A stretch of 64,000 nucleotides of DNA from Enoplolaimus lenunculus (lineage: Eukaryota). Both the position numbers and the translations under genes were made by a program. This document shows positions 17,600-43,858 of the stretch, piece by piece; position 1 is the stretch's first letter; each line of letters begins with the position of its first letter. The notes beneath the pieces were generated by a model. That model had not been told where the DNA came from and ran no database searches. It saw nothing but the letters and a program-made list of their open reading frames with translations. The stretch covers positions 310,001 to 374,000 of the forward strand of contig JASANG010000611.1 in NCBI GenBank assembly GCA_030248215.1, given 5' to 3'.

Positions 17600-17794
17600 A
17601 TGATGCTAGAGAGTTTTATTCGAAAACTCAGATACGTTTCGCATCCTCGTGGTGAAGATTTCATTGATCGGCTGCATTATTTGTTTACCGCAAATGTTAT
17701 AATTGCACTCAGTGTTGTAATGAGTTACAAGACGTTCGCAAGTAAACCTATCGAATGCGCGTTTGTATCTGTATTTCCAAGCGCTTGGGAAAGT
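17600..17794 (+). CDS. Innexin alternative first exon A (N-terminus, TM1, start of EL1)
   Basis: MMLESFIRKLRYV..DFIDRLHYLFTAN..KPIEC..FPSAWES, then GTAAGT donor, phase 0, 65 codons. Confidence 0.85.
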
Positions 17795-20700
17795 GTAAGT
17801 TTTCTTTACATTCGACTTGAAAGACCAGTGATTGTTTGCATACCTCAATTTGATCTGTAGTAAAAAGTAACATATATGTTTTAAAGCTTTATACTTTAAA
17901 TATTTTTTCCGTTTCCATTATTTTGACCACCGGTTTCATTTTCTGAGCAGAATTTGACGCTGGAGGAGTCGAATTTTGACTCAGTTTGTGTAGTCAGAAA
18001 AAGCCTATTTCGCAGAGAGTCAATTTGACTCACCACTTTTTGCAGTGTAGGTATCATTTTGAAACTTTAGCATAGATATACCATATAGCTAGCAGATGCG
18101 TACGGCATATAAATGAAAAACTGAAAACAGATTTTAATAAATATCAAATGTAGACCGCTGTTTTCAGTATATGCTAGCATCCGGGTTTAAACAGTTGATG
18201 GTAGAAATGAAAACAATTGCTGCAACACAACACCCAGCATGGGATTTTGGTGATAGAACTATACGATTATATAAAATTTCAAATTAAATTTAGCCATTTG
18301 CCGGGTTTGGTTGCATAAATAATTTCGGTATAAATCAAAAATTTAGCGCTTGCTATCAAACTGCTGTGGAATTTGGTTTGGAATTGTGTAAAGCTCTAGT
18401 TCGTTTGTTCTATGCATTGATACAGCCGTGTAATCATGACAAAACCTGATCTTCACAAGGCAAGTCATTTTTCATAAAACCTAAAACTAAAAAATACATA
18501 AAATATAATTTAACTGCGATGGTTCTGCCGAATATTGCCATGATTTCTTAAAATATAGAAGTAAAAAAGTACGGCAATGGTTTATAAATTGCAAAAATTA
18601 GCAAATTCAGCATTAACTGCATAATTTTGTCACACCTTCGGCCGTAATTCCAGTTGCGGCTCCAACCCATTTGCTAAATATCCGGCTTTGGCTCCGGTAT
18701 TTTTTAATTTCGGATTCTCGCTTTTTATACTTTTCTGATCAATTGTCAAATAGAATATACCTAAAACTTAAAATACAGAAGTAACTTCTTTTTCTTGGAA
18801 CATTAATATGACTTTCAATTTTGACGTTTGTGCTTGGCCCTGGTTCTAATACAATTAGACTGGGACTTTAAACGCGGGTAAACGCGTGTCGGGTAAAAAA
18901 TTTCAGCCAGCGGCTTGTATTTACCCACGGGTAGAAGATTTGTATCATGCGGGTGAAAAATTGACATTTTTTACCCGCGCAAAATATTTAAGAGCTAAGG
19001 TGCATCACATACGCTACTAACTTTACTTACCCAGTCCGTGAGCGTTGAAAAGCAAAAGTTCTGTGTTTTATAGTTGGGTTTGAAATTACGTTGTTTTTAG
19101 TAGGCTGTGCTGTGTAAAATTCATTGGAGCTATAACGCAAAACTACATTAAATGCAAATTACCAGCGATCTTTAAAATACTGGTTTAACTTCACGTGCGA
19201 GTAAAAAGTGGGTCGTCTATAGTTCTTTAAGTGTGGGTAAACCCGCGCGTAAAAAATTCTTCATTGCCTGGGTGAATGCGTGCCGGGTAACAAATCCTTA
19301 CCCACATGCCACTCTGCTTGCAATGACTCATTGAATTCATAAAGTACAAGACATAAGCATAATCCGATTTTATCAATTCAATAATTTCAAGTACCCCTTG
19401 TGACCATAATCTTTGCGTTCTTTGTCGCAAACTGCGACAGAAGAAAAGCATTAAAGCTTGCTGCATTTACGGTTCTATTTGCATTGCATCACCACCGTTT
19501 GCAGAAAGACTCTCACTGTAAGCTACTACTGCTTTGAATTGCTTTGCGCTCAGGGGCGTACCTACAACAGGAGAAATAGCGGCCAGCGGGGATATAACCC
19601 CAATCGAAATGTGTTTAACGACGGCGAAATCACATTTTAACAGAGTTTATACTAACTCTATACATCCTGCACTGATGGTATATAATCACTCGAACTGAAA
19701 TCCTGGTTACACCTCTGATAGCGCTCCTGCAAGACTTGCAAAGCTTTAGAACGCATTCTGCATTCACAACTTTTTTACTTTGCAAATTATATTTTGTTTA
19801 CTCGAAGCGAACGTAATTTTTGTTTAGTTTTTTTGTGTGTGCTTTCAAAGTGTTTAATATAGAAGGTTACTTTGCTGTTTTAAAAATCGTAGCCTGCAAT
19901 CCAATTGGCTCTTCTATGTCATGGATTTATAGGCAGACCGCCTAGCTTGCTCAGCATGCTTTGCTGGTATTAGGGGTCAAAAATTCAGGTCAGGCGTGCT
20001 GGTACTTCTTGTGAAAAAATAATCGTATTCAGTAACATGCATAAAATCGGACAATCAGTTTTACATTAGCCATCGCAATAGTCAAGCACACACAACTTTG
20101 AAACATGTAGAGGCCTGCAAGTTAACGACGTGAGCCAGATCACCTTGTTAAAAAAGGCTAAAAATTTATAGAATTGGCATACAAGAGTTTTCGTTGATTT
20201 ACAAACGAGGTAGAAATTTCAATAGTTGTAGTTCATAACGTTTCCAAGAAGGGCTTGCATCCTCCGGCCCTAGTCTGACTTCAGGCCCAAAATTCTGTGT
20301 CATAAATGTTAGAAAGAACAAAAAGCTATAACAGCAAGCATTGTTGTTTCAAATTAATACTATAGTTAAGCATCATATAGTAATGAATAAGTTTATTTTC
20401 CTAGGTACCATTTGTAGGTTTGGTTTGTTGCACATCGAACATCGGAAAACGTACTATGAAATTTTGAGTGTCGTTATTTTAAGTTTATGTAGTCAAAAAA
20501 TCCATTTATATTTTATATTTGTTTCACTCCAGGGGGCACTTTGGTATCCAAACACTGCAGCCATATGCGGTGGATATTTTTTATAAAACTAATTCATGTA
20601 CAATATTCATATATTTTTTAGGCCAAACAGCTAAAACTTTTTGAAATGTTTGCAACTGGTAAGGCTGCGTTGGTTGGTTATGTTCAACTGGAAACATTTA

Positions 20701-23700
20701 TTTTTACGTTTAGTGTAGATTAAAATTGGTTTCTTATAACGTTAGTCATACGAGCAATATATATTATATTGGGTTGGAACGGGCCAGGTATTTTGCCCAC
20801 CATACTCAGCCCAGGCCGGGCCGCTTGGGCAAGGGTCCGCGAATTTCATATAGGTTTAGAGCAGAAAACAATCTTTTTCACCAAATACTGTTCAGTCCAG
20901 CTTCCTTCAGAGGAACAAGAGCTCCAACGACAGACAAATGCAAAAGGATGCTAGTCCCGGTTACTACGTTGCCACTGTTGGACAGCTACCCTTTCGGCCA
21001 ATGTTACTCTGAGGGGCGTCCCGTTTTCCCGCGGGACAGCAACATTCCAGCACTCCTGCCCATATATTTGGGCTTGGACGGAGGGACAGCTTCGAACCTG
21101 TGTTTTTGCAAGGTCGGGCGGGAAAGCAGACAGCTTCGAGCATGTGTGTTCTGGTTGGGTCGGGCGGGACAGCCCGGACACCTTCGAGCCTATGTTTTTG
21201 CTGGGTTGGGCGGATAGCCCGGACAACTTCGAATCTATGTTTTTGTTGGGTGGGGCGGGACAGTTGGGACAGCTTCGAGCCTATGTTTTTGCTGGGTTGG
21301 GTGGGATAGCCGGGACAGCTTCTGGCCTATGTTCTTGCTGGGTCGGGCCGAGACACCTTCCAGCGTGTGTTTTCGTTGGGCCGGTCGGAACAGCTGGGAC
21401 AGCTTCGAGCCTATGTTTTTGCTGGCTCGGGTGGAACAGCCGGCACAGCTTCGAGCCTATACGATTTTGCTGGGTCAGGTGGGACAGCCGGGACAGCTTC
21501 GAGCGTGTGTTTTCGTTGGGTCGGTCGGGACAGTCAGGACAGCTTCGAGCCTATGTTTTTGCTGGGTCAGGCGGGACAGCCGGAAAAGCTTCAAGCCTAT
21601 GTTTTTGCTGGGTCGGGCGGACAGCCGGGACAGCTTCGAGCCTAAGTTTATGCTGGGTCGGTCGGGACAGCTGGGACAGCTTCGAGCGTGTGTTTTCGTT
21701 GGGTTCGTCGGGACCTTCGAGCGTGTGTTTTCGTTGGGTCGGTCGGGACAGTCGGAACAGCTTCGAGCCTATGTGTCTCCTGGGTCGGATGGGCCAGCCG
21801 GGACCGCTTCGACCATATGTTTTTGCTGGGTCAGGCGGGACAGCCGGGACAGCTTCGAGCGTGTGTTTTCGTTGGGTCGGTCGGGACAGTCAGGACAGGT
21901 TCGAGCCTATGTTTTTGCTGGGTCAGGCGGGACAGCCGGGAAAGCTTCAAGCCTATGTTTTTGCTGGGTCGGGCGGGACAGCTGGGACAGCTTCGAGCCT
22001 ATGTTTATGCTGGGTCGGTCGGGACAGCCGGGACAGCTACGAGCGTGTGTTTTCGTTGGGTCGGTCGGGACAGTCGGGACAGCTTCGAGCCTATGTTTTT
22101 CCTGGGTCGGCGGGCAGCCGGGACCGCTTCGACCCTATGTTTTTGCTGGGTCGGGCGGGACAGCCGGGAAAGCTTCAAGCCTATGTTTATGCTGGGTCGG
22201 TCGGGACAGCCGGGACAGCTGCGAGCGTGTTTTCGTTGGGTTCGTCGGGACACCCGGGACAGCTTCGAGCGTGTGTTTTCGTTGGGGTCGGTCGGGGCAG
22301 CCGGAACAGCTTCGAGTCTATGTTTTTGCTGGGTCAGGCGGGACAGCCGGACAGCTTCGAGCGCGTGTTTTCGTTGGGTCGGTCGGGACAGCTTCGAGCC
22401 TATGCTTTTGCTGGGTCGGGCGGGACAGCCGGTACAGCTTCGAGCCTATGTTTTTGCTGGGGCGGTCGGGACAGCCGGGACAGCTTCAAGCCTATGTTTT
22501 TGCTGGGTCGGGCAGGACAGCCGGCACAGCTTCGAGTGTGTGCTTTTGCTGGGTCAGGCGGGACAGCCGAGACAGCTTCAAGCGTTTATTTTCGTTGGGT
22601 CGGTGGGGACAGCAAAGACATTTTGTACCCTATGCTTTTGCTGGATTGATCGGGACAACCGGGACAGCTTGCAGTTCACTCTTGCGTTATGCAGTGTACC
22701 TCAACCTGTAAGTAGTGTAGAGGTAATGAAATTTTTTTAGATCCAGTAGTCGTCCGCTTCTTTTAGGTATATTGTTGCAAAATATAAATAACAGGGATCT
22801 ATCATTCCTGTTTGCAACGATGTAGCGATTTTTAAGGCTTAGCTGTTTGAAAATGTATTTGAAACACAATAACAGTGTTAATACAATTTCGACATATGCG
22901 TAAGTTGCCTAGTGCGTGTGTGGGTTGGAGGGGCACAACCCCTTTGAGAACACAATAAAAGACAATTTCCTGAGGTAAAACCTTCCATTCTCTGCATGGA
23001 CAACTTGTTAAATTACGTTCTCAGGGAGGCTCGCAACATTAAGGGACCCTAAGCAGGATGGGAGCTACCGCCCCAAGCCCCTCGCACTAAGCGGTTCTCA
23101 CACTAAGCTGCAAAGACAAAGTCAAAAAATTTTGCTATGAATTGCTTTGTGTGGGGTTCGGGGGTCGACATCCCATGGAAAACGCAATAAAAGAAAATGT
23201 TTTTGTGTCAGGGTTCTATACATGGGCCTGGTCCACGCTGCCCCGGCTGTCCCAACCGACCCAGCAAAAACATAGGTTTGGAGCTGTCCTATCTGTCCCA
23301 AAACACCCAGCAAAAATATAGGTTTTAGCTGTCCAGGCTGTCCCGACCGACCCAGCAAAAATACGGGCTCGAAGCTGTCCCGACCGACCAAGCAAAAATC
23401 GGGCTCGAAGCTGTCCCGACCGACCCATAACAAACAGGTTGAAGCTGTCCCGACGAACCCAGCAAAAACGGCTCATGTATTTAAAGTTCGAGGATAGGGT
23501 GACATTCGATCGAATCTCTGTTGCAATGGTTTTAAACCAGCCGAAAATAAACCAAATCAACTTAATTTCAGGGGGCCAAAGCAAGTATTTATTAGTCAGT
23601 AACAATCTTCTAAACGAAATACCTAGAACTATTAAGGCAGTTGTATAATGAATAACGATTTCTACAATTGTATGCCTTTACGCTCCCAACAATCACCCTG

Positions 23701-26700: not shown

Positions 26701-29700
26701 AGCATTAATTCCGATAGTCGATCGATAGTATTATTGTGTACACACTGCACTTGAATAAAATTCAAGTTTTTTTCGCTATATTTTAAACAATTGTTACACT
26801 ATTGTATGGGTACGATTTTAGTTTTTGTCCTGTGAGAGGAAACGCAACATAGTTTTCGTTGTGCGACGACAGCCATTTTTATCAAAGAGTTTGAAGAGCT
26901 ATGGTGTTGCAGTTTGCTACTGTGATTTATGCTTCATGCGATATATTATAACACGACAATTCATCGCATGACAATTCGTGTATCGGCAACTTGTCATTCG
27001 AAATTTCATCGACTTGCCAATTCGTCGCATCATTATGCTTGAAGTTATGCTTAGGCTTACAATAAGGATTACGCGTAGATTTTTCATAGGCTTTAGGACA
27101 CTGTTGGGTAACAAGTTGTCGATCGGTGAATTTTCAAACAAAACATTTATATCTGGGATTATGTAAGTATTTGTCAATCCTCTAATATCACCGTTGTTTT
27201 GTTTATTTTCTTTCTCGTGCGCTCTCCCACAAGCTTAAGGTTAAATCTAAACCTAAAGAAAAGTCTGACCCCAATCAAAACTTAATTGTAAGCCTAAGTT
27301 ATGCGAAAACCTAAAAATTTCGAATACACACAACATAAATAGTCTTGAAACTTCAAGACACTTAAATACTTTCTGGAATTTTCAAGACAACTGTTGTATT
27401 TCAGACATTAATGGCGTTAGACAACTCAGAAATTTATGTCTGAAATGGTTAAAACCAAAATACCTTATATTAAGAATTTACTGTTGCCAATTTATAAGAC
27501 ATCTGTATTTCTGTCTTTCAAGAAACAGATGTCTTATATTCAAGAATTGATTTTTTGATTTTCATGCATGTAAAAATGTTGCTCCGTTTATATTCTTAAG
27601 AGAGTATATAAATAATCGAATTTATATTCAAGAATTAATTTTCTGATTTTTATGTATGTTAAAATGTTGCTCCGTTTAAATTCTTAAGAGAGTATATAAA
27701 TAATCGAATTTATATTCAAGAATTAATTTTCTGATTTTTATGTATGTAAAAATGTTGTTCCGTTTATATTCTTAAGAGTGTATATAAATAATCGAATTTT
27801 AAAGATATTTCGGGTATTTATAAGACATATATTTCTTTCTTTCGAGAAATATTTGTCTTATATTCAAGAATTAATTTTCTGATTTTTATGTATGTAAAAA
27901 TGTTGCTCCGTTTATATTCTTAAGAGTGTATATAAATAATCGAATTTTAAAAAAATTTGGGGTCGAGCGTAGGCTCCCCCAACGAAAATTAAAGTGTTTG
28001 GTTGAGTCTTAGCGCCCGATTTTGGAGTCGCTTCCCGTGGACATAATTTGTCTTATATTTCAGAAGTATTTGTCTTAATCGTTCATGAAACAAAGTCGTA
28101 AATTTCGGACCTTAATTTTTGAACAATTTCAACCCCAATTTAAGAAATAAAAGTCTGGAATTCAGGAGATATATGTCTGGAGTCTGTATCAAAACATTAG
28201 TCTTAAATTTCAGACAGTATTTCTTGAATATAAGACGATTTATTTTGTGTGTAGGAAACGGAAAATGTACAAGAGTGCTCCTATTCCGTTATAGCCAATC
28301 TTTCTGCATGTTGCATGCCAACAAGAATTCTTGAATATTTTGAATAAAATTTTTGTCCTAAACTTTGAGACGATAAAAATCGGAATAATTCACACTTCGT
28401 ATCAATTCAAATTTTGGTATCCAATGTTCAGGTGAAGTCACAAGAAATTATGTAACTTAACGAAAAAGGCCCAAAAGTTTTACTCTGCGTATTGTTACTG
28501 TTTAGGAATTTTTTGCAGTTACGATGCTAGATATCAGCCAAAACCTAGACTCACTAGAATGGAGCCGCAGGTGTCATTCGGTTCTATAGACCTTGTTTTT
28601 ACTTTAATATGTAACTACTAACGAACTTTGCAAATAAGGTTAAAAGATTGTCTGTACTTAGTGCTACTTCTGTTTTAATTTAAAATAGCGTTTGTACATA
28701 CATATGTTTAAGCCCTTAAACGTGGGAGAAATGTATTTGTTTAGAAAACTCAGGGGGAGGACGAACATGCACTTTCTTGCGCATGCGTACCGGAGCCCAT
28801 CTCTGTAACCGCCACCTATACGTATAATGTCGGGTTCTTAGCCGTTGCAAGACTTATTTAAGCTCAATATTTTCCTTAACGTTTAGCGAAGCCCGAACTT
28901 AGTTTTAACCCTTAATGTGGGTGGAAGTGTACGTGACTTGACCCTATTTCTGTATATACACTTTCAAAAGGCTTAACCTAACTCGATTTTAGCTTAAGCT
29001 AATCTAGCAGTGTGAAACGAACTTTCCAGATTAACTAAACACTAACTGGTAAGTTATGCTTAAACTCATTTGAAATACGACATGTTTTTAGTTTAATCTA
29101 AATTTAGAGAACTCTAAAAATTACATACTTTTTTGAGCAGCACTTGTACCTGAAACCAAAAGTAGAGATTAGCTTAACCTCGCACTAAACTTAAAAATAT
29201 GTTAGTTTAATTTAAACTTAAAATTCTAGCTTAAATAGTCCGTCCTGCCATTTAAGTTTTTTATTTAATCTCACATTTAACCTTAGTTAAGCTATAACAT
29301 AAGTTTTAGTTTTTCGTATTTATATGTAATTTTATATTTCGATAGTAGTATGTATGACCTGCAAATATAAGCTGATGTTGGTGTTTTTAAACTTTTAAAA
29401 CACAATTGCTAACGCGTTTTCGCCGTCTCCGTACAGTATATAATAATAATAATAATAATATAATGATTGAATCGTTGATCTCAGCGGTTGCTTCGTTAAC
29501 GAAAACTAACGACGATGACGATATTGATCGATTACATTATTTTTTAACCAGCAATTTACTAATTGCACTTGCAGTGTTAGTTAGTTGGAAGCAATTTGGC
29601 GACGCACCAATTGAATGTGCGCTGCCACCGCGTATTGATGGATATGAAGAGGTAACGATGATACATACAGTCGAAGTTTTGACACTTTTTACTTGCCCCC

Positions 29701-32700
29701 CCACGCACAGAGGAAAACTTTGATGCCACAATAATGAACCTATAGGAAGTTCAATGAACCCTACGTAGGATAAGGGTTGTCCGTCCCCAAATATCCCACA
29801 CTAAGCTATTGATTATTGGAACGCTTTAAAGTTCTAACGAAGTACTTTTAGACTGGTTTTTTGCGTTCTATGAGAACCGCTTTGTGCCGGATTGGGAGAC
29901 GGCAGCCCCCATCCTGCTAAGGGTCCCTTAGAGCGGTCAGTGGGTCGGTAGTCTTGAATTGTAAGCAAAAAAAGTACCCCTACTGCACTACTTATTCAGA
30001 TGTTCTATTGAAGTACGTTCGTTGTATTTTTATATTGACAACGGAAAATGATCTGAAAATTTCCGCCCATTTCAGTTGTGTGGGGACAAGGAGACGTTAA
30101 ACTGCCGAAAATTTTTGGTTACAATTTTTGGCATGGAGTGTAGCCAGGATTTTGGTTTGCTGACGATGTTACAAAATGTATCATTTTCTAATAGTTTGTG
30201 CGTAACTCATAGGTTTCGTTATATAATGCATGCGTATTAAAAGAATAAATTATTTGAAACCGTTAAAGGGGGTCGCTGCATCATTGAACGACATTATGGT
30301 TATGATCTTGAGTTTTGGGCACCTGTTTATTTGCTCCATCACACACTAGTATTAATTTGACAGAAGAAAAAACTTACCCAATATAATACCACTGTTTTCT
30401 TGAACGCAAGGGTTAAGCAAGACCTAAGTCTAAGAATCAACATAATCCTAAGCTTATTTGATTATTTCACTCATTATATTGGTCGAGGTTACGTATGATC
30501 GAAACTGTGCTTTTCAGAGGCTTTTGTTAGCTATAAGGTGATGCCCACTAAGCATTAACCTAAGTCTAAACGCAAGTCACAAGATGAGTCTAATCCTAAA
30601 CCTAAGCTTAAATCAACCCGGCCCAAAATTTACCAGTTTCCCTGTCTCCCACGGCAAACCATATAGTTGACATCCGCCTCTTTAGTAATTCGTCTATCCA
30701 CGCGAATTTTGTCACATTTTGGTGTCTATCTATATATTAAAGCAGGAACGCCCCACATACGTATTTTGGGCCAATTTCCAGCATTACTTTTCTTACATGG
30801 ACTTCTTAAAACATAAACGTGATTGTTGAATGGAAAGAAAATCTGCGTGAAAATGTATGTGTACTCGATAACTTTTGCGCATTGCGCAAAACCGGCTGCC
30901 TGGTATAATAAAAAGCTGGTCACAATGCAACCTTTGGGTATGGCGCCCTGAAAATTTTAAAACTTGACATTTTCTTTTCGAACAACTGTATTAAAATGCA
31001 TCCTACTCCGAAATAATATTATATGTTTAAAGAAACAGTTTCAAACATCTGGTTGTGGTTTTTTCAAATTTCTAATTGTATTGAACTAGAAATTATTCGT
31101 GCGAGTACAATTATCGGAAAAATTGTGTATTGGGAGCGAAGTTTTTCTGTTAATACCCGGTAAACTCTGAACTAAGCTTCAAATAAGCTCTTTTGTATTT
31201 CCCCCATATATTGTTAAAGCTTGGTCTTAGGCTTAGGCAAAGGCTTGGTCTTAGGCTTAGGCAAAGGTTTGGTCTTAGGCTTAGGCAAAGACTTGGTCTT
31301 AGGCTTAGGCAAAGACTTGGTCTTAGGCTTAGGCAAAGACTTGGTCTTAGGCTTAGGCAAAGGCTTAATGTTAGGCATAGGCAAAGACTTGGTCTTAGGC
31401 TTAGGCAAACGCTTGGTCTTAGGCTTAGACAAAGACTTGGTCTTAGGCTTAGGCAAAGACTAGGTCTTAGGCTTAGGCAAAGGCTTGGTCTCAGGATTTA
31501 GCTTAAGTTTAGGTGTGGGTCTTAAGTAAAGGCTGAGGCAAAAACTTAGGCTTAGGCTTGAGTCAAGCCTTTCCCAAGCCTAAAACTAATCCTAAGCTAC
31601 TGAGGAAAGTGTTCAAGAGCCTTACAGACGTTTTGAAACATTGATACATTGTTTAAAAACCTTATCGTTACATGGGAACACCAAATTTCGCTAAAAGTAC
31701 AGAAATTCTGAGTTGAAATCGTTGAACTGTTTACGATTTTGTTTGTGTAATGATTTGTGGTTATACGAAACAGTGTAAGTTGTTAGAGTTGCAATATTGA
31801 AAAATGAAAATACCTGGACCCGAACCCGGACCCGAATCTTTCTGGAAGAAAAACCCTGACCCGGACGCGGATGCAACTCAATAAGTTGCGCATAAAAGCT
31901 GTTATTTTATGAAACTTTTATCAGCGAATGCCCTGCATAAATACTCCTAAGATAAGATATGTTGTATATGAGTTACCCAATATATGGTTAATATGAACAA
32001 TTCGCATTTTCATTACAATATTCAGTTTGGTGATTCTAGTAGTCGAATTATACAGCTCTATAACACAATCAGTAATATCAGTTTTAATTTGGAGTTTCAG
32101 TTTAATTCATTTTATACGGTTTGGTCAAATCTTATGTATCTTACATACAAATATCACCAACTTGAAAACTGTTGAAGTCCCGGTACTTTTTACCTTCGTC
32201 ACACAACTAAAATGTGGGCGGGCCCACAGTCAACTCACCTTGCTAGGGCGGGGATTCAAAATTTTTTCAGGAGGGCACAGAAGGGTTTTCGATGACTTAC
32301 AAGCAAGATTAAAAAGTTTCTACCGGGGAAAAAAATTCTCCCAGAACGGGCTGAGCCTCACATGGCTCGCTCTGGCTACAGGCTCGAATGTGAGGTCAAA
32401 CTAGCCGGCTCAATAAAACACAAACAATCTTCTGCAACCGAACGTCTAAGTTTGCAATGTAGTATGGACGCTTTTTCACTTTCCATTTCTGTCACATGTC
32501 TGAACCCTTCCCCGATTTCAGGGAACGCTAACCAGATTGGAGGTGTTGCCTCGTTACCTTTCGCGCTAAGCGGTACTCAAACCGCATACTAGGACGCTAA
32601 AAACGCAGTCTAAAAACAAAGTACTTCGTTAGAAGTTTTAAGTGTTCCAATAATGAGCTGCTTAGTGCGGGGGATTAAGCCGGCGACAGCCCTTGAGTAA

Positions 32701-35700
32701 CCAATTAAAAAAATTTTCTATGTGGAAAAGAAAGTTTGTACAACCAAGTGGTCTTTTAAACAAAATTAGGCTCTTGTACACTTTCTACCTTACTGGCTTA
32801 TGGCTTAGGCTTATATTTCCGAAAGGGCTTACCTAATCTTATTTCTGTGCATATAAGCCTTTGCCTAAGACTAATCTTTAACCTTAACGATGGGGGAAAG
32901 TATAAAAGATCGTAAAACGAACAAATTCCGTCGTCGTAAAAATATTTTTCGATTAAAACTTCGTTATGAAAGCATCTTTAATTGAAATTCTAAAAACACT
33001 GGTTTGTCCATATCATTCGGATCATTTAAATACTTTAAATCATGCTATCACATCAAACTTGTTGGTCGCAATTGCGATTGGCGTAAGCGCAAAACAGTAT
33101 GGCGGTAAACCAATTGAATGTATGGTACCAAAACGGTTTCCGACAGCGTGGGAAGAGGTGCGTGTTTCAAACGCCCGCTAAAACCCTCTGAGAAGCATAT
33201 ATAGGAATTGAAAAAATTATTGCTGAAAATATTCGCCACATGCTTGCGGCGTTGTTTCAAGAAGATTTTTTAATTTTGTTTTGTAGTATTTCCGTAAAAA
33301 AGGTCGGCGTTTGTGCACTTTGTCACATGGGCTTACGCTCACACTCAGGATTACACTATGCTTAGATTACGGAAAAGGCTTGCCGAAGTCTAAGGGTTGC
33401 GCTATACTTTTATTGACGACGTGCGGCGCGGTCCGTCACCCGCACGGTACCGTATGACGCCGTCCGTTGCCCGTATGGCGCTGTCCGTCCCCCGTACGGC
33501 GCTGTCCGTCCCCCGTACGGCGCTGTCCGTCCCCCGTACGGCGCTGTCCGTCCCCCGTACGGCGCTGTCCGTCCCCCGTACGGCGCTGTCCGTCCCCCGT
33601 ACGGCTCCGGCCGGCATCCGTACGGTGCTGTCCGTCCCCCGTACGGCGCTGTCCGTCCCCCGTACGGTACCGTCCGTCACCGTGCGGCGCCATCGAACGG
33701 CGCCTGACATCAAGTATAGCGTAACCCTAAGTCTAAGCCTCTGCATAAACTTTTTCGTAAGCTTAAGCCTATGCCTAAGCCTTAACTATAATAAATGTAG
33801 CGGGAATTGTACTAGAGCCAAAAGGCGTTTAATGGCAGAAATAGTTTTTGGCACTTGTATAGTTCCTTAGTCTCTCCACGCACTAATAAATATGAGGGGG
33901 GTGGCTTTATAGACAATTCATTATGGAAACAGCCAGTGGCGGATCCAGGATCTCAAAATGGGGGGCCATAATTTCACAGGTAATATAATTTTTGTCGAGA
34001 TGCTGTTGGGGGGGGGGGCACGGCGGGGGTGCCCCCCCCCCGTGGATCCGCCATTGGAAACAGCTAAAATTTTTAATAAAGTGCTTTGGGATGTTTTTTA
34101 GCGCTGGGAGGCTGAAATTGCGGTAGACACCATCCTGTTTCGTGTTCTCTGAAACTGTGTGTGGGGTTTCTGGGATGTACAAACGATACCCCCACTTTCT
34201 GAAACTATGGGGGGGCTTTCCCAGCCTGGTAGAAAACTACAAAAGTGCCAGTTTTTATGGCACATTTTACCAAACCGATATATGTTTGAAATGTTAGAAA
34301 TCTGTTTCTGTCTACTACAACTAACCAGTACTTAAAGTTCACTGTTTAGTTGAAGCCTGTGTGCCGCACAAAGCTAAAGCTCTATTCACACGTGCTAGTT
34401 TTTGCAGCAAAACCTTGCATGTGTAACTTGCACGCGCAAGTTTGGTCACAATGCAGCTTTAAAGTTCTTGCAGCTACAAATTATTATTTAATTTAATTAG
34501 CACCAATGAACGCAGTTGCAAGTCGTTTGAGTCTCTTGTACCTGCAGTTTGATTGGTCAATCGGAACGTTCCTTTGAAAATACTTGCAGCTGCAAGTATT
34601 TCGTGCAAGTTACAGCTGCGGGTTCTCGCTGCTAAAAGATGCACTTGTGAATGGCTTAATTTTACGTTGAATTCGCAAATGATTAATTTTGTTCAGTTCA
34701 AACGCATACTCACATTTCTACTATTGAAGCTATGTATAATCAGAAAGTTATCTGTATTAATGTTCTACTTCAAATATATATGCATCGCTTTAGATATTTG
34801 TTTCGTATATCATCATTAATTAAACTGCATACCAGAAATTCGGGATCTTGTTCACCTCCTCCTATTTAAAGTTAACTCTTTTGCTTTGGTTCATGCTTAG
34901 GCTTAGGAAAAGATTTTAAGTTTAGGCTTGACACATCGGGTGTTAGGATTTTTAGCTTAAATTTGGTTTTATAATACGCGCAAACCCAGTATAGTTATAG
35001 TAGCTTTTTTCGTGTCTTTTCTGTTATCTGTCCCCCAGCCTGCGTTTGCCCAAAAATAGTTGGATTTTGAAAACTTTTGCATATTTGGGCTTCTCACGGC
35101 CTCCGTTGATCATTCCATGCCCAAATTTGATTTTATTTGAAAAATTCAATTTTTAAGGTTCTAAGGCCCCCCATGGGACCCAAAAAACTTTTGCGTCATA
35201 AAGTTATATATACATAAGTTATACATCATTCGACGCAACATGCAGAGCTGAGTCGAATGGTGTTAAATTTTTCTTCATCAGACATCTGGCTAATGAGTTA
35301 TAATTAAATAACTGATTTGGCGCCGTGCAAAAACGTTGGTAGCGCGACAAATCAGCTATTTGACCATAACTGGCTAACCAGACGTGTGATTGTGGAGCAT
35401 TTAACACCATTCGACTCAGATCTGCATGTTGCGTTGAATGGCGTATAATTTATCTAACTTTTCGAAGCAAAATTTTTGGGTTTCTAGGGGACCGTAGGAC
35501 TTGAAAAATCGAATTTTTCATAAATTCAAATTTGGGCGTAAAATAATCAGAAGAGGCCATGAGAAGCCCAAATATGCAAAAACATTCAAAATTCAACCGT
35601 TTGGGGTAAACGCCGGCTAGTGGGCGGATATACAACCGAAAACACCCCTTTTTCGTATTATTAGTTTCAATTTACAGCTTGTGCACAAAATGACTGAAGC

Positions 35701-38700
35701 ATATATATTAACGTTAGCGAAATTTAGAAGTTAAAGACGTGGCTGAATTTTTTGCATATTTTTATTTCTTAGAATTTCACCTGATTTGTTCGCAATGTAA
35801 ATTATACAATTTGTGTGCAATTGTTGTGTTTTTTGACGTTTCAGTACGCTGAAAACTATTGCTGGGCAAAAGACACGTACTTTTTGCCGTTTTCACAGGC
35901 GACAGTGTCAAGTGACGAAAGTGTTCGCACCGAGCATCGAATCTCGTATTATCAGTGGGTTCCGTTTTTCTTACTTTTCGAAGCTGCTTGCTTTCGGTTA
36001 CCCAGTTTGGCGTGGAAATATTTCGCTGGGCATTCTGGTTAGTTGAAAGTATGCTTACTGAGGAGCTATCAGCTCATACGGGTAGGTCAATATTTCAAAA
36101 ACCTAGCTATGTGCAACATTATATTTTCTGTTGGTATCCATATTGCTATTTAATTGCAGCAATGGGCTCTTATATGTATGTGACTAGTATATACACTTAA
36201 CGTTAATCGAATAAAACCTTGTATATTTTTGAAAAACATTTTTATTCTAAGCTTAAGCATTTGTGCCAAAATAAGAAAATTTCGGAACATGTGGGAAACG
36301 TATATACAAGAACTAAAAGGTGATTGGTATTGAGTTGAACGTGTGATAATTAGGCTTAGGATTAGGTATATCTAAACTTAGCTAAGCTTAGGTCCGGTGG
36401 GAGAAGTGTGTAAGCCAGTGTATTTATTTTCTCTGTGCAGAATTTGCGCATTCATCTGACAATATGCCAATACGAGTAAAAACATCGTAACATTCCGAAT
36501 AAAGTCCAAAAGTAAACCATCATTAATTTTCCATGACTTCTGGTTTTATCAAACTGAAATTGAAACTTTTGATAAACGCGCAAAAAATTTGGTACAGAAG
36601 AAAAAATACATCGGCTTACGCTTCCCGCCACAGACCTAGGCTTAGACTAAGGCTTAGGTATAGGCTTAGGATTAGAAATAAACTGAACGCTACATCGAAC
36701 CCTAAGTATTCTCATATACCTTAGTCTGAGATAAGAAAGAGCCTAAACCTAAATACAAACTTTCAATACGGAAGGAACGTTTGCAACAGACAAACATAGT
36801 CACAATTGCTTCAAATTCATATTGGAGCCAAAGCTTCCTGATACATTTCTTTCGTAAATTCATTAGAACCAAAGATTCCTGATATATTTCTTAAATTCAT
36901 TTTGGAACCAAACCTTCCTGATACATTTCTTTCTTAAATTCATTAGAACCAAAGATTCCTGATATATTTCTTTAATTCATATTGGAACCAAAGCTTCCTG
37001 ATATATTTCTTAAATTCATTTTGGAACCAAACCTTCCTGATACATTTCTTTCTTAAATTCATTAGAACCAAAGATTCCTGATATATTTCTTTAATTCATA
37101 TTGGAACCAAAGCTTCCTGATATATTTCTTAAATTCATTTTGGAACCAAACCTTCCTGATACATTTCTTTCTTAAATTCATTAGAACCAAAGATTCCTGA
37201 TATATTTCTTTAATTCATTTTGGAACCAAACCTTCCTGATACATTTCTTTCTTAAATTCATTAGAACCAAAGATTCCTGATATATTTCTTTAATTCATTT
37301 TGGAACCAAACCTTCCTGATACATTTCTTTCTTAAATTCATTAGAACCAAAGATTCCTGATATATTTCTTTAATTCATATTGGAACCAAAGCTTCCTGAT
37401 ATATTTCTTAAATTCATTTTGGAACCAAACCGTCCTGATACATTTCTTTCTTAAATTCATTAGAACCAAAGATTCCTGATATATTTCTTAAATTCATTTT
37501 GGAACCAAACCTTCCTGATACATTTCTTTCTTAAATTCATTAGAACCAAAGATTCCTGATATATTTCTTTAATTCATATTGGAACCAAAGCTTCCTGATA
37601 TATTTCTTAAATTCATTTTGGAACCAAACCTTCCTGATACATTTCTTTCTTAAATTCATTAGAACCAAAGATTCCTGATATATTTCTTTAATTCATATTG
37701 GGACCAAAGCTTCCTGATATATTTCTTAAATTCATTTTGGAACCAAACCTTCCTGATACATTTCTTTCTTAAATTCATTAGAACCAAAGATTCCTGATAT
37801 ATTTCTTTAATTCATATTGGAACCAAAGCTTCCTGATATATTTCTTAAATTCATTTTGGAACCAAACCTTCCTGATACATTTCTTTCTTAAATTCATTAG
37901 AACCAAAGATTCCTGATATATTTCTTTAATTCATATTGGAACCAAAGCTTCCTGATATATTTCTTAAATTCATTTTGGAACCAAACCTTCCTGATACATT
38001 TCTTTCTTAAATTCATTAGAACCAAAGATTCCTGATATATTTCTTTAATTCATATTGGAACCAAAGCTTCCTGATATATTTCTTAAATTCATTTTGGAAC
38101 CAAACCTTCCTGATACATTTCTTTCTTAAATTCATTAGAACCAAAGATTCCTGATATATTTCTTTAATTCATATTGGAACCAAAGCTTCCTGATATATTT
38201 CTTAAATTCATTTTGGAACCAAACCTTCCTGATACATTTCTTTCTTAAATTCATTAGAACCAAAGATTCCTGATATATTTCTTTAATTCATATTGGAACC
38301 AAAGCTTCCTGATATATTTCTTAAATTCATTTTGGAACCAAACCTTCCTGATACATTTCTTTCTTAAATTCATTAGAACCAAAGCTTCCTGATATATTTC
38401 TTAAATTCATTTTGGAACCAAACCTTCCTGATACATTTCTTTCTTAAATTCATTAGAACCAAAGATTCCTGATATATTTCTTTAATTCATATTGGAACCA
38501 AAGCTTCCTGATATATTTCTTAAATTCATTTTGGAACCAAACCTTCCTGATACATTTCTTTCTTAAATTCATTAGAACCAAAGATTCCTGATATATTTCT
38601 TTAATTCATATTGGAACCAAAGCTTCCTGATATATTTTTAAATTCATATTGGAACCAAAGCTTCCTGATATATTTCTTAAATTCATTAGAACCAAAGATT

Positions 38701-41700
38701 CCTGATATATTTCTTTAATTCATATTGGAACCAACGCTTCCTGATATATTTCTTAAATTTATATTGGAACCAAACCTTCCTGATACATTTCTTTCTTAAA
38801 TTCATTAGAGCCAAAGATTCCTGATATATTTCTTTAATTCATATTGGAGCCAAAGCTTCCTGATATATTTCTTAAATTCATTTTGGAACCAAAGCTTCCT
38901 GATATATTTCTTTCTTAAAATTCATTAGAACCAAAGCTTCCTGATATATTTCTTTCTTAAAATTCATTAGAACCAAAGATTCCTGATATATTTCTTTAAT
39001 TCATATTGGAACCAAAGCTTCCTGATATATTTCTTAAATTTATATTGGGACCAAACCTTCCTGACATAATTCTTTCTTAAACTCGTTAAAACCAAACCTT
39101 CCTGATATATTTCTTAAATTCATTTTGGAACCAAAGCTTCCTGATATATTTCTTTCTTAAAATTCATTAGAACCAAAGATTCCTGATATATTTCTTTAAT
39201 TCATATTGGAACCAAAGCTTCCTGATATATTTCTTAAATTTATATTGGGACCAAACCTTCCTGACATAATTCTTTCTTAAACTCGTTAAAACCAAAGCTT
39301 CCTGATATATTTCTTAAATTCATATTGGAACCAAACCTTCTGATATATTTCTTAAATTCATATTGGAACCAAACCTTCTGATATATTTCTTAAATTCATA
39401 TTGGAACCAAACCTTCTGATATATTTCTTAAATTCATATTGGAACCAAACCTTCTGATATATTTCTTTAATTCATATTGGAACCAAACCTCTTTAAATTC
39501 ATATTGGAACCAAACCTTCTGATATATTTCTTTAATTCATATTGGAACCAAACCTTCTGATATATTTCTTAAATTCATATTGGAACCAAACCTTCTGATA
39601 TATTTCTTAAATTCATATTGGAACCAAACCTTCTGATATATTTCTTAAATTCATATTGGAACCAAACCTTCTGATATATTTCATTAATTCATATTGGAAC
39701 CAAACCTTCTGATATGTTTCTTAAATTCATATGGGAACCAAACCTTCTGATATATTTCTTAAATTCATTTGGGAACCAAACCTTCTGATATATTTCTTAA
39801 ATTCATATTGGAACCAAAGCTTCCTGATATATTTCTTAAATTGATAGGAATTAAAATCCATGATATTGTCCGTGTGGCAACTGATCCCAGCACAGTGGAC
39901 GCTGAAGGACGCCGCCAGAGCTTACAATCGTTGACACTGCATTTACAAAATGCGCTCAGGTAACTGTTTTTGGTACAGTCTCACCCTCCACAACACAAAT
40001 ATGAGGGGATTTGTCCACTTGTAACATAAAAATGCTTTGTTTTCTTGTTTAAAAAACTAGTTTCTAATGCGAAAATGTTTCGTCAATTTTGCGTTATGTA
40101 TTTAAGGGGGGCTGCGGTTTCCTGCAATTTGAAGGGATACTGAGCAGGACCAAGCCCCTGAAGTAAGCATTTTATTTAAAGAGCGAAAATTATTGAAATA
40201 GTTTGAAATGTATTAGCGCGTAAGTATGAGAAGCGGTTAGTGCGGAGGGGGGACTTGGAAGGCAGCAGCCCCCATCCTGCGTAGTGTTCTTTAAAATCGC
40301 AAGAAGTTCATGGGGGCATCAGTCCACCTGAAAACGAAATTGTTCGGACGGGGGAACTTTTCCACTGTGAGGGGGCAACTACAAAAGTGGCATGTGTTTA
40401 ATATTGAAATAAAATTTAAAATTTTTATTGGAAAATGTGAAATTAAATCTTTTTGGTTATGTACCATTCAAAGTTTCGTTCTTAAAAGCAGGTCTGCGAT
40501 CGTTGTTTGGAATAAGGCGAAAATCTTTACTATCACGAGGCAAATATATCGTCGCCGCTGTACATTTTTGTTAAATAAAAAATCGCTCTTCGGAACAGAA
40601 CTGCAGTGTATCTAAAAGCAGGGTCTTTTACGCCTTATCTTTGTATATAGCAGGGTGGCACCGAATCTGCGATTTGACCGACTCCGAATCCGAATCCAGT
40701 GCTAATTTGCCGAAACCGAATCCGAATCCTGCATGTTACAAATTTCAGATATATCTATAATTTGTTTCAGAATATCAACGCACTGCCAGTCGTATAACTT
40801 TTAATACGTTAATATATTTCGTCCCGACGTCAGTTCTGAGATTTCTCACCTAAAATAAAAAATATTGATTTTTATAGCAAAGTATTTAAAAATTTTATTG
40901 CTTAAAAATGAAAAAACATATTGCCGAACTTTGTTGGATTCAGCTTTTGGATTCGGCATTTTCATAACTGAATCCGAATCTGAACCTCAAATTTTTGCCG
41001 ATTCCGAACCTTTGTTGCCACCATGGTATATAGGTTAAGCTTTGGCGCATAGTATGTCATTTACTACACCTAAGCTTAAGCGTAAATGTGGGTAAAAAGT
41101 GTACTAAAACGATAATCACGCAGGCCAATGTATAGAACAGGTCTGTAACAGTAGTATAAGTATATTCCTAACACCTAACTCTAAGCCTAACGCCTAAGCC
41201 TAAGCGCAAGAATTAGGTAGTTTATACCTAAGCCTAAGCCGAAGCAAAAAATAAGTCCAAAGCGTAAGCTTACTCTATATGGCATTTAGTCAGACAAACG
41301 TTCCTCCCCTGATCTTTACATGGGCCATTACATTTGATGTCTCATTTGGAATTCCTTTTGGATTTCAGATTTCATCGCCGCGTTATTAAGAAAAGTTTTC
41401 GGCCTCATAAATATTTGATTCCACTCAATTTGCCGTACACTGCCGGTTTTGTCACATTCATGTACTTGTTTGTTAAACTAATGTATTTGGCGAACGTATT
41501 CCTACAACTTTACCTTATGTCAATTTTTCTGGGTTCTGAACATTATTCGCACTTTGGAACCGATGCAATTCAGCAGCTATTTGACGGATCATCGTGGGAA
41601 CATTCAGGATTTTTCCCACGCGTCACGTTATGCGACTTTAAGGTAGTTCATTTTAACGTTAAAGAGCATAGACAGACAATTATAGCAAAATGACAAGTTT

Positions 41701-43858
41701 GAATGGCTGGAACAAGACTATTTCGGAAATAAGCAAAGATGTTACGAATACATTCTCTTCAAGTTGGTGCGTTTTCTAACGCTAAGTTTTTTAACTTTAG
41801 CTGCTGTTAACTACTCGCCGCACGACTTTAAATAATTTTTGTTGATTCAAGGATGACAAGAAATCTCAGTTTGGCAGAAATTATAGCCGATTGGGTCACA
41901 AAAGGGGTGCTGTACGCTGCAACCAAACCTACGCCTACGAATAAGCCCAACTTAGGCCAAAATATAAAATTTCGAAAAACGAAATGGAAGCGTACAAAAG
42001 CTAACAAATCCATTATCTCTCAACGTTATTGCGCATTTTATTTCAATGAATGACTGCGCTGTACCTCAAGATACCGAAAATACCGTAACCTGTTTGCGAA
42101 TTTAATTTCAGGTGCGCGCCCTTGGCAGCAATGTCCAACGTTACACTGTCCAGTGTGTGCTGGTTATAAATATTTTCAACGAGAAAATATTTGTTTTCCT
42201 TTGGTTTTGGCTTGCAATTTTGGCTGCGCTGACGTCGCTGTCAATCTTATACTGGACCATAATAATGCTATTTCCACCGTTTTCAAGGTGGTTCATTTCC
42301 AGGTAGTCATTTTGTTCGTTATGTCGATGATGACACTTTGAGCAAGATTGTACAACTTTCTCGAACCAATACGCTTGGTGTAAAAAGTACCACCGCGCGT
42401 TGCGTTTTGCCTACACCAGCCTCTCATTTAAGTTGGAGTCAATTTCATACAGAACACAGCTACACTGGAATTAAGAATATAAACAACGGACGTTTTACAC
42501 TGTGCATCGCAACAGTGTTTGTCGGCTTTCAACGTTTCAACATCCTCTAAATCAGGGTGTAAGGCAAAAACGCAACGCGTGCGGGTACATTCTCTCCTAT
42601 AGGTACATTCTCTCCTATACAAAATGTTTCCAGTTACATACTCTTGTTGACGTATTCATCATCTACTCTTGTTAATACGGAGTAATATTTTATTGATAAC
42701 TGTCGTGATGGGATTGTTTGACTGGCACTATTCTTTTAGACTGGTTTAGATCTATGCGGCGTGTAAGCGAAAATTTTTGAGACGTACGGTGCCATCCGAC
42801 GCCCTATGTATGCAAGTTGCTGTGAAACTTGTAGTTTGTGGAGTTTTTTTAGACATCTGGAACTATCCGAAATGCCATTCGATCCACATGGTAACCGCAA
42901 AGACGTGGAACGCTTTGTTGTTGGCTATTTGAAAACTGACGGTGTGTTCCTTTTGCGTATGATTACATTACACGCCGGTATCATTTACGGCACAGATTTG
43001 GTGCTCAATTTATGGAAAGCGTTCTACGGAATTGAAGCGGTTGTCAAAAAGAAATCCCTCGATTCGGCGGCGGGCGGAACTGCGCCAACTTTGACACCGT
43101 CAATTAGTAAGACCCCATCGGCAGCTGGGCCTATACCGACGAAGCCTGAGGTCAGTGTTTTAAACATCTTTAGACGACGCCGTCGTCAATCTAAATCACC
43201 AACGCAACCACTTCAAACTGTTTATCCGATCGCACTAACTTTGCGCGCTTCTGATCAGAAGCTCGGCAAAGGCAACCGCACAACAGATGGAGGTGCAACT
43301 CAAACCAATGCTACAGAATTGGTCAAAGTACTAATTCCTGACGGTTCAGGAGGTATAACTGAAGCGTACGTGTTGCGCAGTGCGTTAGAAGACGGTGGCG
43401 ACGATGAAAATAACAACAACAGCAACAGTAAAATTGGCGGGTCAGCAAAAGCAAGTGAGGCTGTCTGTGACTCAGAGGATGGCCAAGCGCAACCGAAAGC
43501 GCTAAAATCAATATCAGTGAAAGAAGACAGGCGGCGAGATACTCCACGGCTACGTCGACGTGTTATGTCGCAATATTCCGCAATGGATCCAGGCGACACT
43601 GGTGAAGAACGGTTTGGCAAAGCGGCGCCAACCGCTGTAAGAGCGTTAACTGGCACCGGGCGAAGCGGTTTAAGCCAAGAAGATGATGGCGATGGTTATA
43701 GTTCAGATGAACATTCAACAAAGCAACAACGAGTGTCAAGTGGTAGCGGGGGACTGGCTAAATCAGTGGGATTGCTTTCGGTCGAACACAGTACGCACGA
43801 TGAAGAGAATAACAACAAAAGCGATGATGATCAGAAACTGCTGTTAAGTAATGTTTAA
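17600..43858 (+). CDS. inx-10: Innexin (gap junction protein), INX-10-like; three alternative first exons + five constant exons
   Basis: Constant exons 35845-36037 (YAENYCW..YYQWVPFFL), 39848-39959, 41369-41642 (FPRVTLCDF), 42112-42302 (QCVLVINIFNEKIF), 42853-43858 (YLKTDGVF, long tail, TAA). Phases 0/1/2/0/2 are consistent. The gene symbol is from recalled similarity to C. elegans INX-10 and is less certain than the family call. Confidence 0.9.
18856..19316. mobile_element. Old hAT-like MITE
   Basis: TAGACTGG...CCACTCTG ends, internal ACCCG/CGGGTA subrepeats; same family as 43903-44308. Confidence 0.5.
19551..19717. mobile_element. Short hAT-like MITE
   Basis: CAGGGGCGTA...TACACCTCTG TIR; degenerate 8-bp TSD tttgcgct/atagcgct. 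Confidence 0.5.
21065..22670 (+). repeat. GC-rich satellite, ~45-bp unit with two interspersed variants
   Basis: Unit CAGCTTCGAGCCTATGTTTTTGCTGGGTCGGGCGGGACAGCCGGGA and variant CAGCTTCGAGCGTGTGTTTTCGTTGGGTCGGTCGGGACAGTCGGGA. Confidence 0.95.
23236..23470 (-). repeat. Inverted block of the same satellite
   Basis: GCTCGAAGCTGTCCCGACCGACCCAGCAAAAA is the reverse complement of the unit above. Confidence 0.9.
26158..26418. mobile_element. piggyBac-like MITE
   Basis: TTAA|CCCCTTCTCA...TGAGAAAGGG|TTAA. Confidence 0.65.
27327..28251. mobile_element. TA-flanked MITE with internal tandem repeats
   Basis: TA|CACACAACATAAATAGTCTT...AAGACGATTTATTTTGTGTG|TA; ~90-bp tandem units at ~27535-27950. Confidence 0.7.
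29463..29651 (+). CDS. Innexin alternative first exon B
   Basis: MIESLISAVASL..DDDDIDRLHYFLTSNLL..KQFGDAPIEC..GYEE, then GTAACG donor, phase 0, 63 codons. Confidence 0.85.
31219..31500 (+). repeat. 24-bp minisatellite built from TTAGGC hexamers
   Basis: (CTTGGTCTTAGGCTTAGGCAAAGA) about 11-12 copies. Confidence 0.95.
32966..33157 (+). CDS. Innexin alternative first exon C
   Basis: MKASLIEILKTLV..DHLNTLNHAITSNLL..KQYGGKPIECMVPKRFPTAWEE, then GTGCGT donor, phase 0, 64 codons. Confidence 0.85.
33394..33727. mobile_element. PIF/Harbinger-like MITE with internal 21-bp minisatellite
   Basis: TAA|GGGTTGCGCTATACTT...AAGTATAGCGTAACCC|TAA; (CCCGTACGGCGCTGTCCGTCC)n at ~33470-33670. Confidence 0.8.
33934..34056. 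mobile_element. 123-bp hAT-type MITE
   Basis: CAGTGGCGGATCCA...TGGATCCGCCATTG with perfect 8-bp TSD GAAACAGC. Confidence 0.85.
34377..34656. mobile_element. Palindromic MITE
   Basis: ATTCACACGTGC...GCACTTGTGAAT inverted ends and internal TAACTTGCACG/CGTGCAAGTTA. Confidence 0.55.
35010..35650. mobile_element. Foldback element with ~300-bp imperfect inverted arms
   Basis: TTTTGCATATTTGGGCTTCTCA/TGAGAAGCCCAAATATGCAAAA; ACGCAACATGCAGA/TCTGCATGTTGCGT; TGAGTCGAATGGTGTTAAAT/ATTTAACACCATTCGACTCA. Confidence 0.75.
36810..39843 (+). repeat. 3-kb intronic AT-rich satellite with 119-bp higher-order unit (37+39+43), 38-bp monomers at the 3' end
   Basis: Monomer TTCATATTGGAACCAAAGCTTCCTGATATATTTCTTAAA and variants; register shifts 1 nt per 120 nt. 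Confidence 0.97.
40651..41025. mobile_element. hAT-type MITE
   Basis: CAGGGTGGCA...TGCCACCATG, perfect 8-bp TSD GTATATAG, CCGAAT subrepeats. Confidence 0.85.
41123..41326. mobile_element. MITE family carrying GCCTAA (telomere-type) tracts
   Basis: GGCCAATGTA...TACATGGGCC ends; homologous copies at ~44692-44868 and ~53888-54093, partial at ~57840-57945, reverse at ~48890-49076. Confidence 0.7.

What the first reader, a model, noticed from the sequence alone, without database searches (positions are those of the whole stretch)
17600..43858. Innexin locus with an array of three variable first exons spliced to one constant region
Seen: three intact ATG-initiated exons (17600-17794, 29463-29651, 32966-33157) of 63-65 codons. 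Each has the innexin motifs D..(D/N).L..T.N..K.(F/Y)...PIEC and ends in a phase-0 GT donor at the same codon just before YAENYCW. Only one exon 2 (YYQWVP) and one copy of each later exon were found in the window. Exons A and B are only roughly 40% identical by eye, yet none of the three has a stop or frameshift, which suggests old duplications kept by selection. Known: the innexin N-terminal helix and TM1 line the pore (C. elegans INX-6 cryo-EM), and Drosophila shakB uses alternative N-terminal exons to build rectifying heterotypic junctions. Inference: promoter choice, as in clustered protocadherins or UGT1, would generate gap-junction channels with different pore, gating and docking properties on a common body, possibly acting as a cell-type code for electrical coupling.
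Basis: partly seen in the sequence, partly recalled or inferred. Interest (0 to 1): 0.88.

Follow-up and report, generated by a model that had tools for sequence, protein, structure and literature searches.

The report
Three swappable innexin pore-lining exons
One nematode gap-junction (innexin) gene carries three different intact first exons in a row ahead of a single shared body, so it likely makes three channel subunits with different predicted pore linings, a layout that gene models of several other nematodes also show.

Summary
Observation confirmed. Exons A, B and C (63-65 codons, 34-43% identical) each match Pfam Innexin and end in a phase-0 GT at the same codon. They precede one stop-free five-exon constant region (591 aa); the window holds no fourth first exon and no second body. 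Synonymous sites are saturated (pS 0.72-0.82 vs pN 0.40-0.47): old duplicates kept by selection. Splicing here is untested.

New support comes from relatives. Haemonchus and Bursaphelenchus each have two database proteins with the same body (388/389, 507/507) and different first modules (28/65, 28/64). Five gene models (Trichuris, Elaeophora, Dirofilaria, Rhabditophanes, Aphelenchoides) fuse two such modules. One alternative module forms a supported clade across Rhabditida, but A-C are not placed in it. The gene sits unresolved at the base of the inx-10/inx-11-like/inx-5-like group.

The exon maps to INX-6 residues 1-70 (N-terminal funnel, TM1, first E1 cysteine), so gating and permeation likely vary more than docking. 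It works like Drosophila shakB. Ten paper searches found no description in nematodes. The scan earlier noted a nine-exon innexin array in Owenia (unchecked). New variant of a known kind.

The parts
17600..17794 (+). Variable first exon A (N-terminal helix, TM1, start of E1 with first cysteine); 65 codons; phase-0 donor GTAAGT; 18,050-nt intron to exon 2
29463..29651 (+). Variable first exon B; 63 codons; donor GTAACG; acidic N-terminus (net -4 before TM1); 6,193-nt intron to exon 2
32966..33157 (+). Variable first exon C; 64 codons; donor GTGCGT; N-T in place of the D-R of the DRL motif; 2,687-nt intron to exon 2
32901..32908 (+). TATA-like box (TATAAAAG) 65 nt before the ATG of exon C; candidate promoter element, function untested
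29427..29436 (+). Only AG in the 83 nt before exon B's ATG; candidate trans-splice or leader acceptor. Phase-0 read-on from it hits a stop within 9 codons, so an A-to-B join there gives no fused protein
35845..36037 (+). Constant exon 2 (YAENYCW ... YYQWVP; rest of E1 and TM2); TTTCAG acceptor
39848..39959 (+). Constant exon 3 (cytoplasmic loop)
41369..41642 (+). Constant exon 4 (TM3, start of E2, FPRVTLCDF)
42112..42302 (+). Constant exon 5 (E2, CVLVINIFNEKIF, TM4)
42853..43858 (+). Constant exon 6 (conserved C-terminal helices plus a long low-complexity tail) with stop codon

Best explanation
A single nematode innexin gene of the inx-10/inx-11-like group carries three duplicated, diverged first coding exons, each likely used from its own transcription start or trans-splice site and likely spliced to the same exon 2, which would give three subunits predicted to differ only in the first 63-65 residues. 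Those residues correspond to INX-6 1-70: the N-terminal helix that forms the narrowest pore funnel, the D25 tether to the cytoplasmic dome, TM1, the flexible hinge and the first E1 cysteine (mapped by alignment of a homologue). The three isoforms would share the E2 docking hairpins and the cytoplasmic dome, and so could likely dock and co-assemble with each other. They would differ in voltage gating and permeation; net charge before TM1 is +1, -4 and 0. Cells that express different isoforms would form asymmetric, possibly rectifying junctions, as shakB isoforms do. Shown: the anatomy, the intact frames, the signature of selection and the same layout in gene models of other nematodes. Inferred: splicing in this species, separate promoters, cell-type use and channel properties.
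For: Anatomy. Selection: pS 0.72/0.75/0.82 against pN 0.41/0.47/0.40; second codon positions identical at 37-42 sites against 22-25 at third positions. Simulated neutral drift of 0.2 substitutions per site leaves each exon intact only 7-11% of the time, and 0.5 leaves about 0.5% (no indels modelled). Same-species proteins with one body and two first modules: Haemonchus P0098/P0119 (388/389 and 28/65) and Bursaphelenchus xylophilus P0025/P0061 (507/507 and 28/64). Two modules fused in one gene model: 4 of 138 proteins (P0001, P0002, P0028, P0091) plus P0139. The switch point is the same codon before YAEN[YF]CW in all of them. Of 78 near-full modules among 141 unnamed representatives, 40 run into a valine at that codon, as read-through of a GT donor would give. 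An alternative-module clade of 13 rows has support 99/98. Structure mapping. Precedent.
Against: No transcript evidence exists for this locus. The database isoform pairs are gene models whose RNA support I could not see, and P0025 carries an internal duplication that marks it as a flawed model. A, B and C are not placed within the conserved alternative clade or as one clade (AU p 0.475 and 0.188; A lies outside the 99/98 clade), so orthology to the relatives' exons is not shown. The layout is not universal: L007, an inx-10-like genomic contig with 5 kb upstream, has one first exon and an intron a few codons later. None of 80 metagenome loci showed a tandem array, though most are short or distant. 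Only C has a TATA-like box. C lacks the D-R of the DRL motif. The simulation cannot exclude very recent loss of function.
Confidence: 0.8

Rival explanations
1. A, B and C are mutually exclusive exons under one upstream promoter and a shared non-coding leader, so the choice is made by splicing, not by promoter. The three proteins would be the same.
For: Acceptor-like sites lie 61-119 nt before A and 27 nt before B. In nematodes these fit either SL trans-splicing or cis-splicing from a leader (established knowledge).
Against: C has a TATA-like box at -65 and no good pyrimidine-rich acceptor within 150 nt. Each exon has its own ATG at the homologous position. No leader exon was identified.
Confidence: 0.08
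2. Only the nearest exon, or only one or two of the three, is used now; the others are recently silenced copies or orphans of tandem paralogues that lost their bodies.
For: Tandem innexin paralogues with different first modules exist: Plectus P0042/P0057 share only 333/394 of the body and are separate genes. Recent silencing leaves a frame intact about half the time at 0.05 substitutions per site.
Against: No remnant of exons 2-6 lies between A and exon 2. All three keep ATG, frame, donor and a hydrophobic TM1. One-body, two-module models recur in seven species.
Confidence: 0.09
3. Assembly artefact: A and B belong to other innexin genes and were joined here across repeats.
For: Tandem repeats lie at 21083-23468 between A and B, and at 31216-31495 between B and C. 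No reads could be checked.
Against: The window has no N. Two independent misjoins would each have to keep exactly one same-strand first exon and drop its body. The layout recurs in other nematodes.
Confidence: 0.03

Closest known systems
Drosophila shaking-B (ShakB Lethal, Neural, Neural+16)
   Same: One innexin locus makes isoforms with different N-terminal parts on a common body; heterotypic pairs rectify (PMC5412853, PMC7455501, PMC6193117; passages).
   Different: In shakB the differences run to TM2, covering all of E1. Here the variable part stops 12 residues after the first E1 cysteine (11 in B). There are three homologous modules, in a nematode gene of the inx-10/inx-11-like group.
C. 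elegans unc-7 N-terminal isoforms (UNC-7a-j)
   Same: A nematode innexin with isoform-specific first exons and promoters; UNC-7b confers rectification (PMC7455501, passages).
   Different: [quoted passage not shown] Here a whole homologous module with TM1 and part of E1 is swapped.
C. elegans inx-10 and inx-11
   Same: Closest characterised relatives. The constant region sits unresolved at the base of the group that holds proteins named INX-10 and the clade I call inx-11-like (the inx-11 and inx-5 labels are recalled, no call names them). Both act in body-wall muscle coupling. Extra inx-11 cDNAs, one from a newly found conserved exon, were cloned (PMC3793928, passages).
   Different: The passages read do not say whether that exon is an alternative first exon. 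inx-10 isoforms are described as differing at the 3' end (10.1101/406207, passages). One-to-one orthology is not resolved.
Variable-first-exon clusters (clustered protocadherins, UGT1, GCNT2)
   Same: A tandem array of homologous first exons spliced to common constant exons (PMC1885805, search listing and start of abstract only).
   Different: Three exons instead of up to tens; the variable part is a pore-lining module of a channel; stochastic promoter choice is untested.

Membership tests
Innexin (PF00876) | Profile match over the family domain | tested here: met
   Exons A, B, C, 2 and 4 pass the curated cut-off and exon 6 matches weakly, E 0.0032; exon 5 passes; exon 3 is found by a homologue profile only (no Pfam hit).
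Innexin (PF00876) | Two cysteines in each extracellular loop and the YYQWVP motif | tested here: met
   PIEC in each first exon, YCW and YYQWVP in exon 2, TLCDF in exon 4, QCVL in exon 5; INX-6 pairs C58-C265 and C76-C248.
Innexin (PF00876) | Forms gap-junction channels or hemichannels | not testable with these tools
   Needs expression and electrophysiology.
Nematode inx-10 / inx-11-like / inx-5-like group | Constant region groups with these proteins against unc-7/unc-9-like innexins | tested here: met
   Quick tree of 61 rows: inside the 58-row group (SH-aLRT 98); best identity 58% to Soboliphyme P0004. Long end branch; the careful search did not finish; the outgroup labels are recalled.
Nematode inx-10 / inx-11-like / inx-5-like group | One-to-one orthology to inx-10 or inx-11 | tested here: inconclusive
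   Unresolved at the base of the group.
Variable-first-exon array (protocadherin/UGT1 type) | Tandem homologous first coding exons with same-phase donors ahead of one constant region | tested here: met
Variable-first-exon array (protocadherin/UGT1 type) | Each variable exon is spliced to the first constant exon | not testable with these tools
   No run was available to lay on the locus; indirect support from gene models of relatives.
Variable-first-exon array (protocadherin/UGT1 type) | Own promoter for each exon | tested here: inconclusive
   TATA-like box before C only; acceptor-like sites before A and B.
Variable-first-exon array (protocadherin/UGT1 type) | Stochastic or cell-type-specific promoter choice | not testable with these tools
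   Needs single-cell or reporter data.
shakB-type isoform system | Isoforms form rectifying heterotypic junctions | not testable with these tools
   Only charge differences were computed: +1, -4 and 0 before TM1.
Conserved Rhabditida alternative first exon (defined here) | A, B or C falls in the alternative-module clade | tested here: inconclusive
   A plus that clade is not rejected (p 0.475), but A lies outside the 99/98 clade in the larger tree; only 65 columns.

The most novel reading that the evidence does not exclude
[quoted passage not shown] This worm keeps three; Trichuris keeps one module of each of two types on one body; Rhabditida inx-11 keeps a conserved second module; and later gene duplications partly parcelled the modules out as separate genes. 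C. elegans inx-11 would be an overlooked case: its 529-aa model (PMC3920094 table) is 63-86 residues longer than nine single-module proteins of that clade (443-466 aa), about one extra module. With shakB in flies and the unchecked Owenia array, swapping the N-terminus/TM1 module would be a recurring way to build asymmetric electrical synapses from one gene, testable directly in C. elegans.
Probability: 0.35. Interest if true: 0.78.

Novelty: new variant of a known kind. Interest (0 to 1): 0.58.

Why it matters
How cells tune the direction and strength of electrical coupling is an open question, and the innexin N-terminus is a known determinant (PMC7455501, PMC5412853). A natural set of three pore-lining modules on an identical body is a ready-made structure-function series. 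The layout appears widespread in nematodes, parasites included, and gene predictors mis-annotate it as fused two-module proteins or orphan fragments. Promoter reporters and rescue constructs built on a single start site could miss isoforms. If C. elegans inx-11 shares it, isoform-specific knock-outs and paired recordings can test the idea at once.

Tried and rejected
No whole genome is held for this window, so copies outside 64 kb and other innexin loci were not searched. No RNA holder was listed for the last exon, so no reads could be laid; this is no evidence on expression. The cluster-member look-up could not be made, so accession-level isoform lists were not seen.

The metagenome scan kept 80 of 296 confirmed stretches. 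65 of 80 had a first-exon module and 4 had two hits, none read as a tandem array on one body: L051 is one exon split by an intron, L055 and L067 have hits on opposite strands, and L059 has two weak hits not examined further.

The first-exon profile alone did not find INX-6 in the PDB sequences; mapping was done with homologue P0004. The ESM Atlas gave no usable hit for exon C. The Plectus pair P0042/P0057 was rejected as isoforms (333/394 body identity, so paralogues).

The idea that exon A's K-T-F motif marks it as orthologous to the Rhabditida alternative exon was weakened: 27 of 78 modules lack K-Q, and group profiles scored A higher on the standard inx-11-like set than on the alternative set (85.2 vs 71.8 bits). 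Spliced isoforms were not folded.

Literature searches found no paper describing duplicated first exons in a nematode innexin; the library lacks most subscription papers. Altun et al. 2009 was not held. No supplement of PMC3793928 could be read; it or the GenBank records might show the inx-11 exon. Passages of 10.64898/2026.08.12.744261 and PMC10349088 had nothing on this.

Full report
Observation. Each starts with ATG, has no stop, and ends in phase 0 before a GT donor at the same aligned codon. All pass Pfam's Innexin cut-off, and exon 2 continues the profile at position 48. I defined five constant exons with canonical splice sites: 35845-36037, 39848-39959, 41369-41642, 42112-42302 and 42853-43858. 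They give 591 codons without a stop. Profile searches of all six frames found three first exons and one set of constant exons, and nothing else below E 0.33. None of 56 longer ORFs scanned between 13 and 36 kb hit Pfam. TTTCAG acceptors and 61 TTAGGC/GCCTAA hexamers fit a nematode (established knowledge). All close homologues with a source name are nematode proteins.

Age and selection. The exons are 34-43% identical as protein. Synonymous sites are saturated (pS 0.72-0.82) while pN is 0.40-0.47, and second codon positions are kept far better than third. At DNA level only a 56-nt stretch of A and B aligns; the B-C hits come from overlapping flanks and repeats. A substitution-only simulation leaves an exon intact 7-11% of the time after 0.2 neutral substitutions per site, but about half the time after 0.05. 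The copies therefore diverged under purifying selection, and only very recent silencing is left open.

Relatives. Among 138 homologues, 4 gene models hold two first-exon modules in a row: Trichuris trichiura P0001, Elaeophora P0002, Aphelenchoides besseyi P0028 (second module partial) and Rhabditophanes P0091. Dirofilaria P0139 is a fifth. Two TM1 segments would invert the topology, so these are best read as predictors fusing alternative exons (inference). A pairwise screen (body at least 80% identical over 300 aa, first module at most 62%) listed 17 pairs. Two are same-species pairs with one body: Haemonchus P0098/P0119 (388/389 and 28/65) and Bursaphelenchus xylophilus P0025/P0061 (507/507 and 28/64; P0025 also has an internal duplication). 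A third same-species pair, Plectus P0042/P0057 (333/394), is two genes. Cross-species pairs show the same switch: Ascaris/Parascaris 316/330 and 27/65; Ancylostoma/Necator 364/389 and 28/65. The switch always falls just before YAEN[YF]CW. Of 78 near-full modules among 141 unnamed representatives, 40 run into a valine at that codon, 16 continue into exon 2 and 22 do neither, which fits a widely shared intron. These are gene models; I could not see their RNA support.

Against generality. L007, an inx-10-like genomic contig with 5 kb upstream and another gene there, has one first exon and an intron a few codons later. None of 80 metagenome loci showed an array.

Phylogeny. In a quick tree of 61 bodies (a selection of the homologues held; the careful search did not finish) the window gene is unresolved at the base of a group with Dorylaimia 'Innexin-10', Rhabditida INX-10, and clades I label inx-11-like and inx-5-like from recall. 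Its best identity is 58%, to Soboliphyme. That suggests an early-branching nematode. In first-module trees of 65 columns, the alternative modules on inx-11-like bodies form one clade: 92/76 with 6 rows and 99/98 with 13 rows (bootstrap not settled). This points to an old exon conserved across filarial, ascarid, strongylid and steinernematid worms. A, B and C are unresolved. Neither 'A with the alternative clade' (p 0.475) nor 'A+B+C one clade' (p 0.188) is rejected, and A lies outside the clade. The two Trichuris modules fall apart, one near the inx-10 type, but their union is not rejected (p 0.104). Whether the array arose once or several times is open.

Mechanism. Alignment of homologue P0004 to INX-6 puts the exon boundary after INX-6 residue 70. 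The variable exon thus covers the N-terminal helix, D25, TM1, the I52-G53 hinge and C58, while C76 and all of E2 are constant. In INX-6 the N-termini form the narrowest constriction, D25 ties them to the cytoplasmic dome, E1 helices form a second constriction, both loops contribute to docking, and the E2 hairpins insert into the opposing hemichannel (PMC5146279, passages). Each exon keeps a hydrophobic 19-mer at residues 24-43, and net charge before TM1 is +1, -4 and 0. I infer three subunits that can likely dock with one another but gate and conduct differently. C has a TATA-like box at -65; A and B have acceptor-like sites upstream that could serve SL trans-splicing. A join of A to the AG before B meets a stop within 9 codons. 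Splicing, promoters and channel properties are inferred, not shown.

Comparison with what is known. [quoted passage not shown] C. elegans UNC-7 isoforms differ before TM1, and UNC-7b confers rectification (PMC7455501, outline and passages). C. elegans inx-10 and inx-11 act in body-wall muscle. The authors cloned two new inx-11 cDNAs, one from a newly found conserved exon, and warn that 5' variants were probably missed (PMC3793928, passages; supplements not readable). A review table lists INX-11 as 529 aa (PMC3920094, passage), against 443-466 aa for nine single-module proteins of the inx-11-like clade. [quoted passage not shown] Ten searches returned no description of duplicated first exons in a nematode innexin; the library is incomplete. 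The scan's own notes hold an unchecked report of nine such exons in an Owenia innexin, and no look-alike by sequence.

Verdict. The feature is real and probably functional (0.8). It works like shakB and is built like a small UGT1/protocadherin array, with a shorter swapped module that is mostly pore-lining. It is not a peculiarity of this genome: the layout recurs across nematodes. That lowers the surprise of this one locus but raises its testability. New variant of a known kind; interest 0.58.

Noticed in passing
window:36805-39842: A 3-kb tandem array (periods 80 and 119 reported) fills most of intron 2 and runs to within a few bases of the exon 3 acceptor.
   Followed up: no
window:35025-35630: A 600-nt imperfect palindrome (76% self-complementary), MITE-like, about 200 nt before exon 2; a similar one at 46369-46591 has a partial copy at 17944-18049, just after exon A.
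   Followed up: no
window:21083-23468: GC-rich 46-nt tandem repeat (35 copies) with long open frames, plus a shorter inverted block of the same unit, between exons A and B.
   Followed up: no
window:46755-53126 (-): Gene with a CAP domain and at least two ShK-like domains downstream of the innexin on the opposite strand.
   Followed up: partly
window:58980-61952 (+): GST_N and GST_C pieces that look like elongation factor 1-gamma (name recalled), with a 185-nt inverted duplication at 59731-59915 / 60622-60806.
   Followed up: partly
window:2786-4191 (-): BTB/BACK-domain gene.
   Followed up: partly
window:42853-43858: The C-terminal tail is long and low-complexity; predicted isoforms are about 655 aa against 477-494 aa for the nearest single-module homologues.
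   Followed up: no
P0007, P0013, P0015, P0016, P0018, P0021: Strongylid inx-5-like gene models are fused to ribosomal protein S25 (PF03297), probably a neighbouring or operon gene merged by predictors.
   Followed up: no
P0025, P0028, P0220: Aphelenchoidid inx-10 has its own second first module ending in LPF[IV]G, distinct from the inx-11-like alternative module; possibly an independent duplication.
   Followed up: partly
window:14504-15061: A 190-nt direct duplication (14511-14700 / 14797-14986) whose sequence looks tRNA-derived by eye; not scanned.
   Followed up: no
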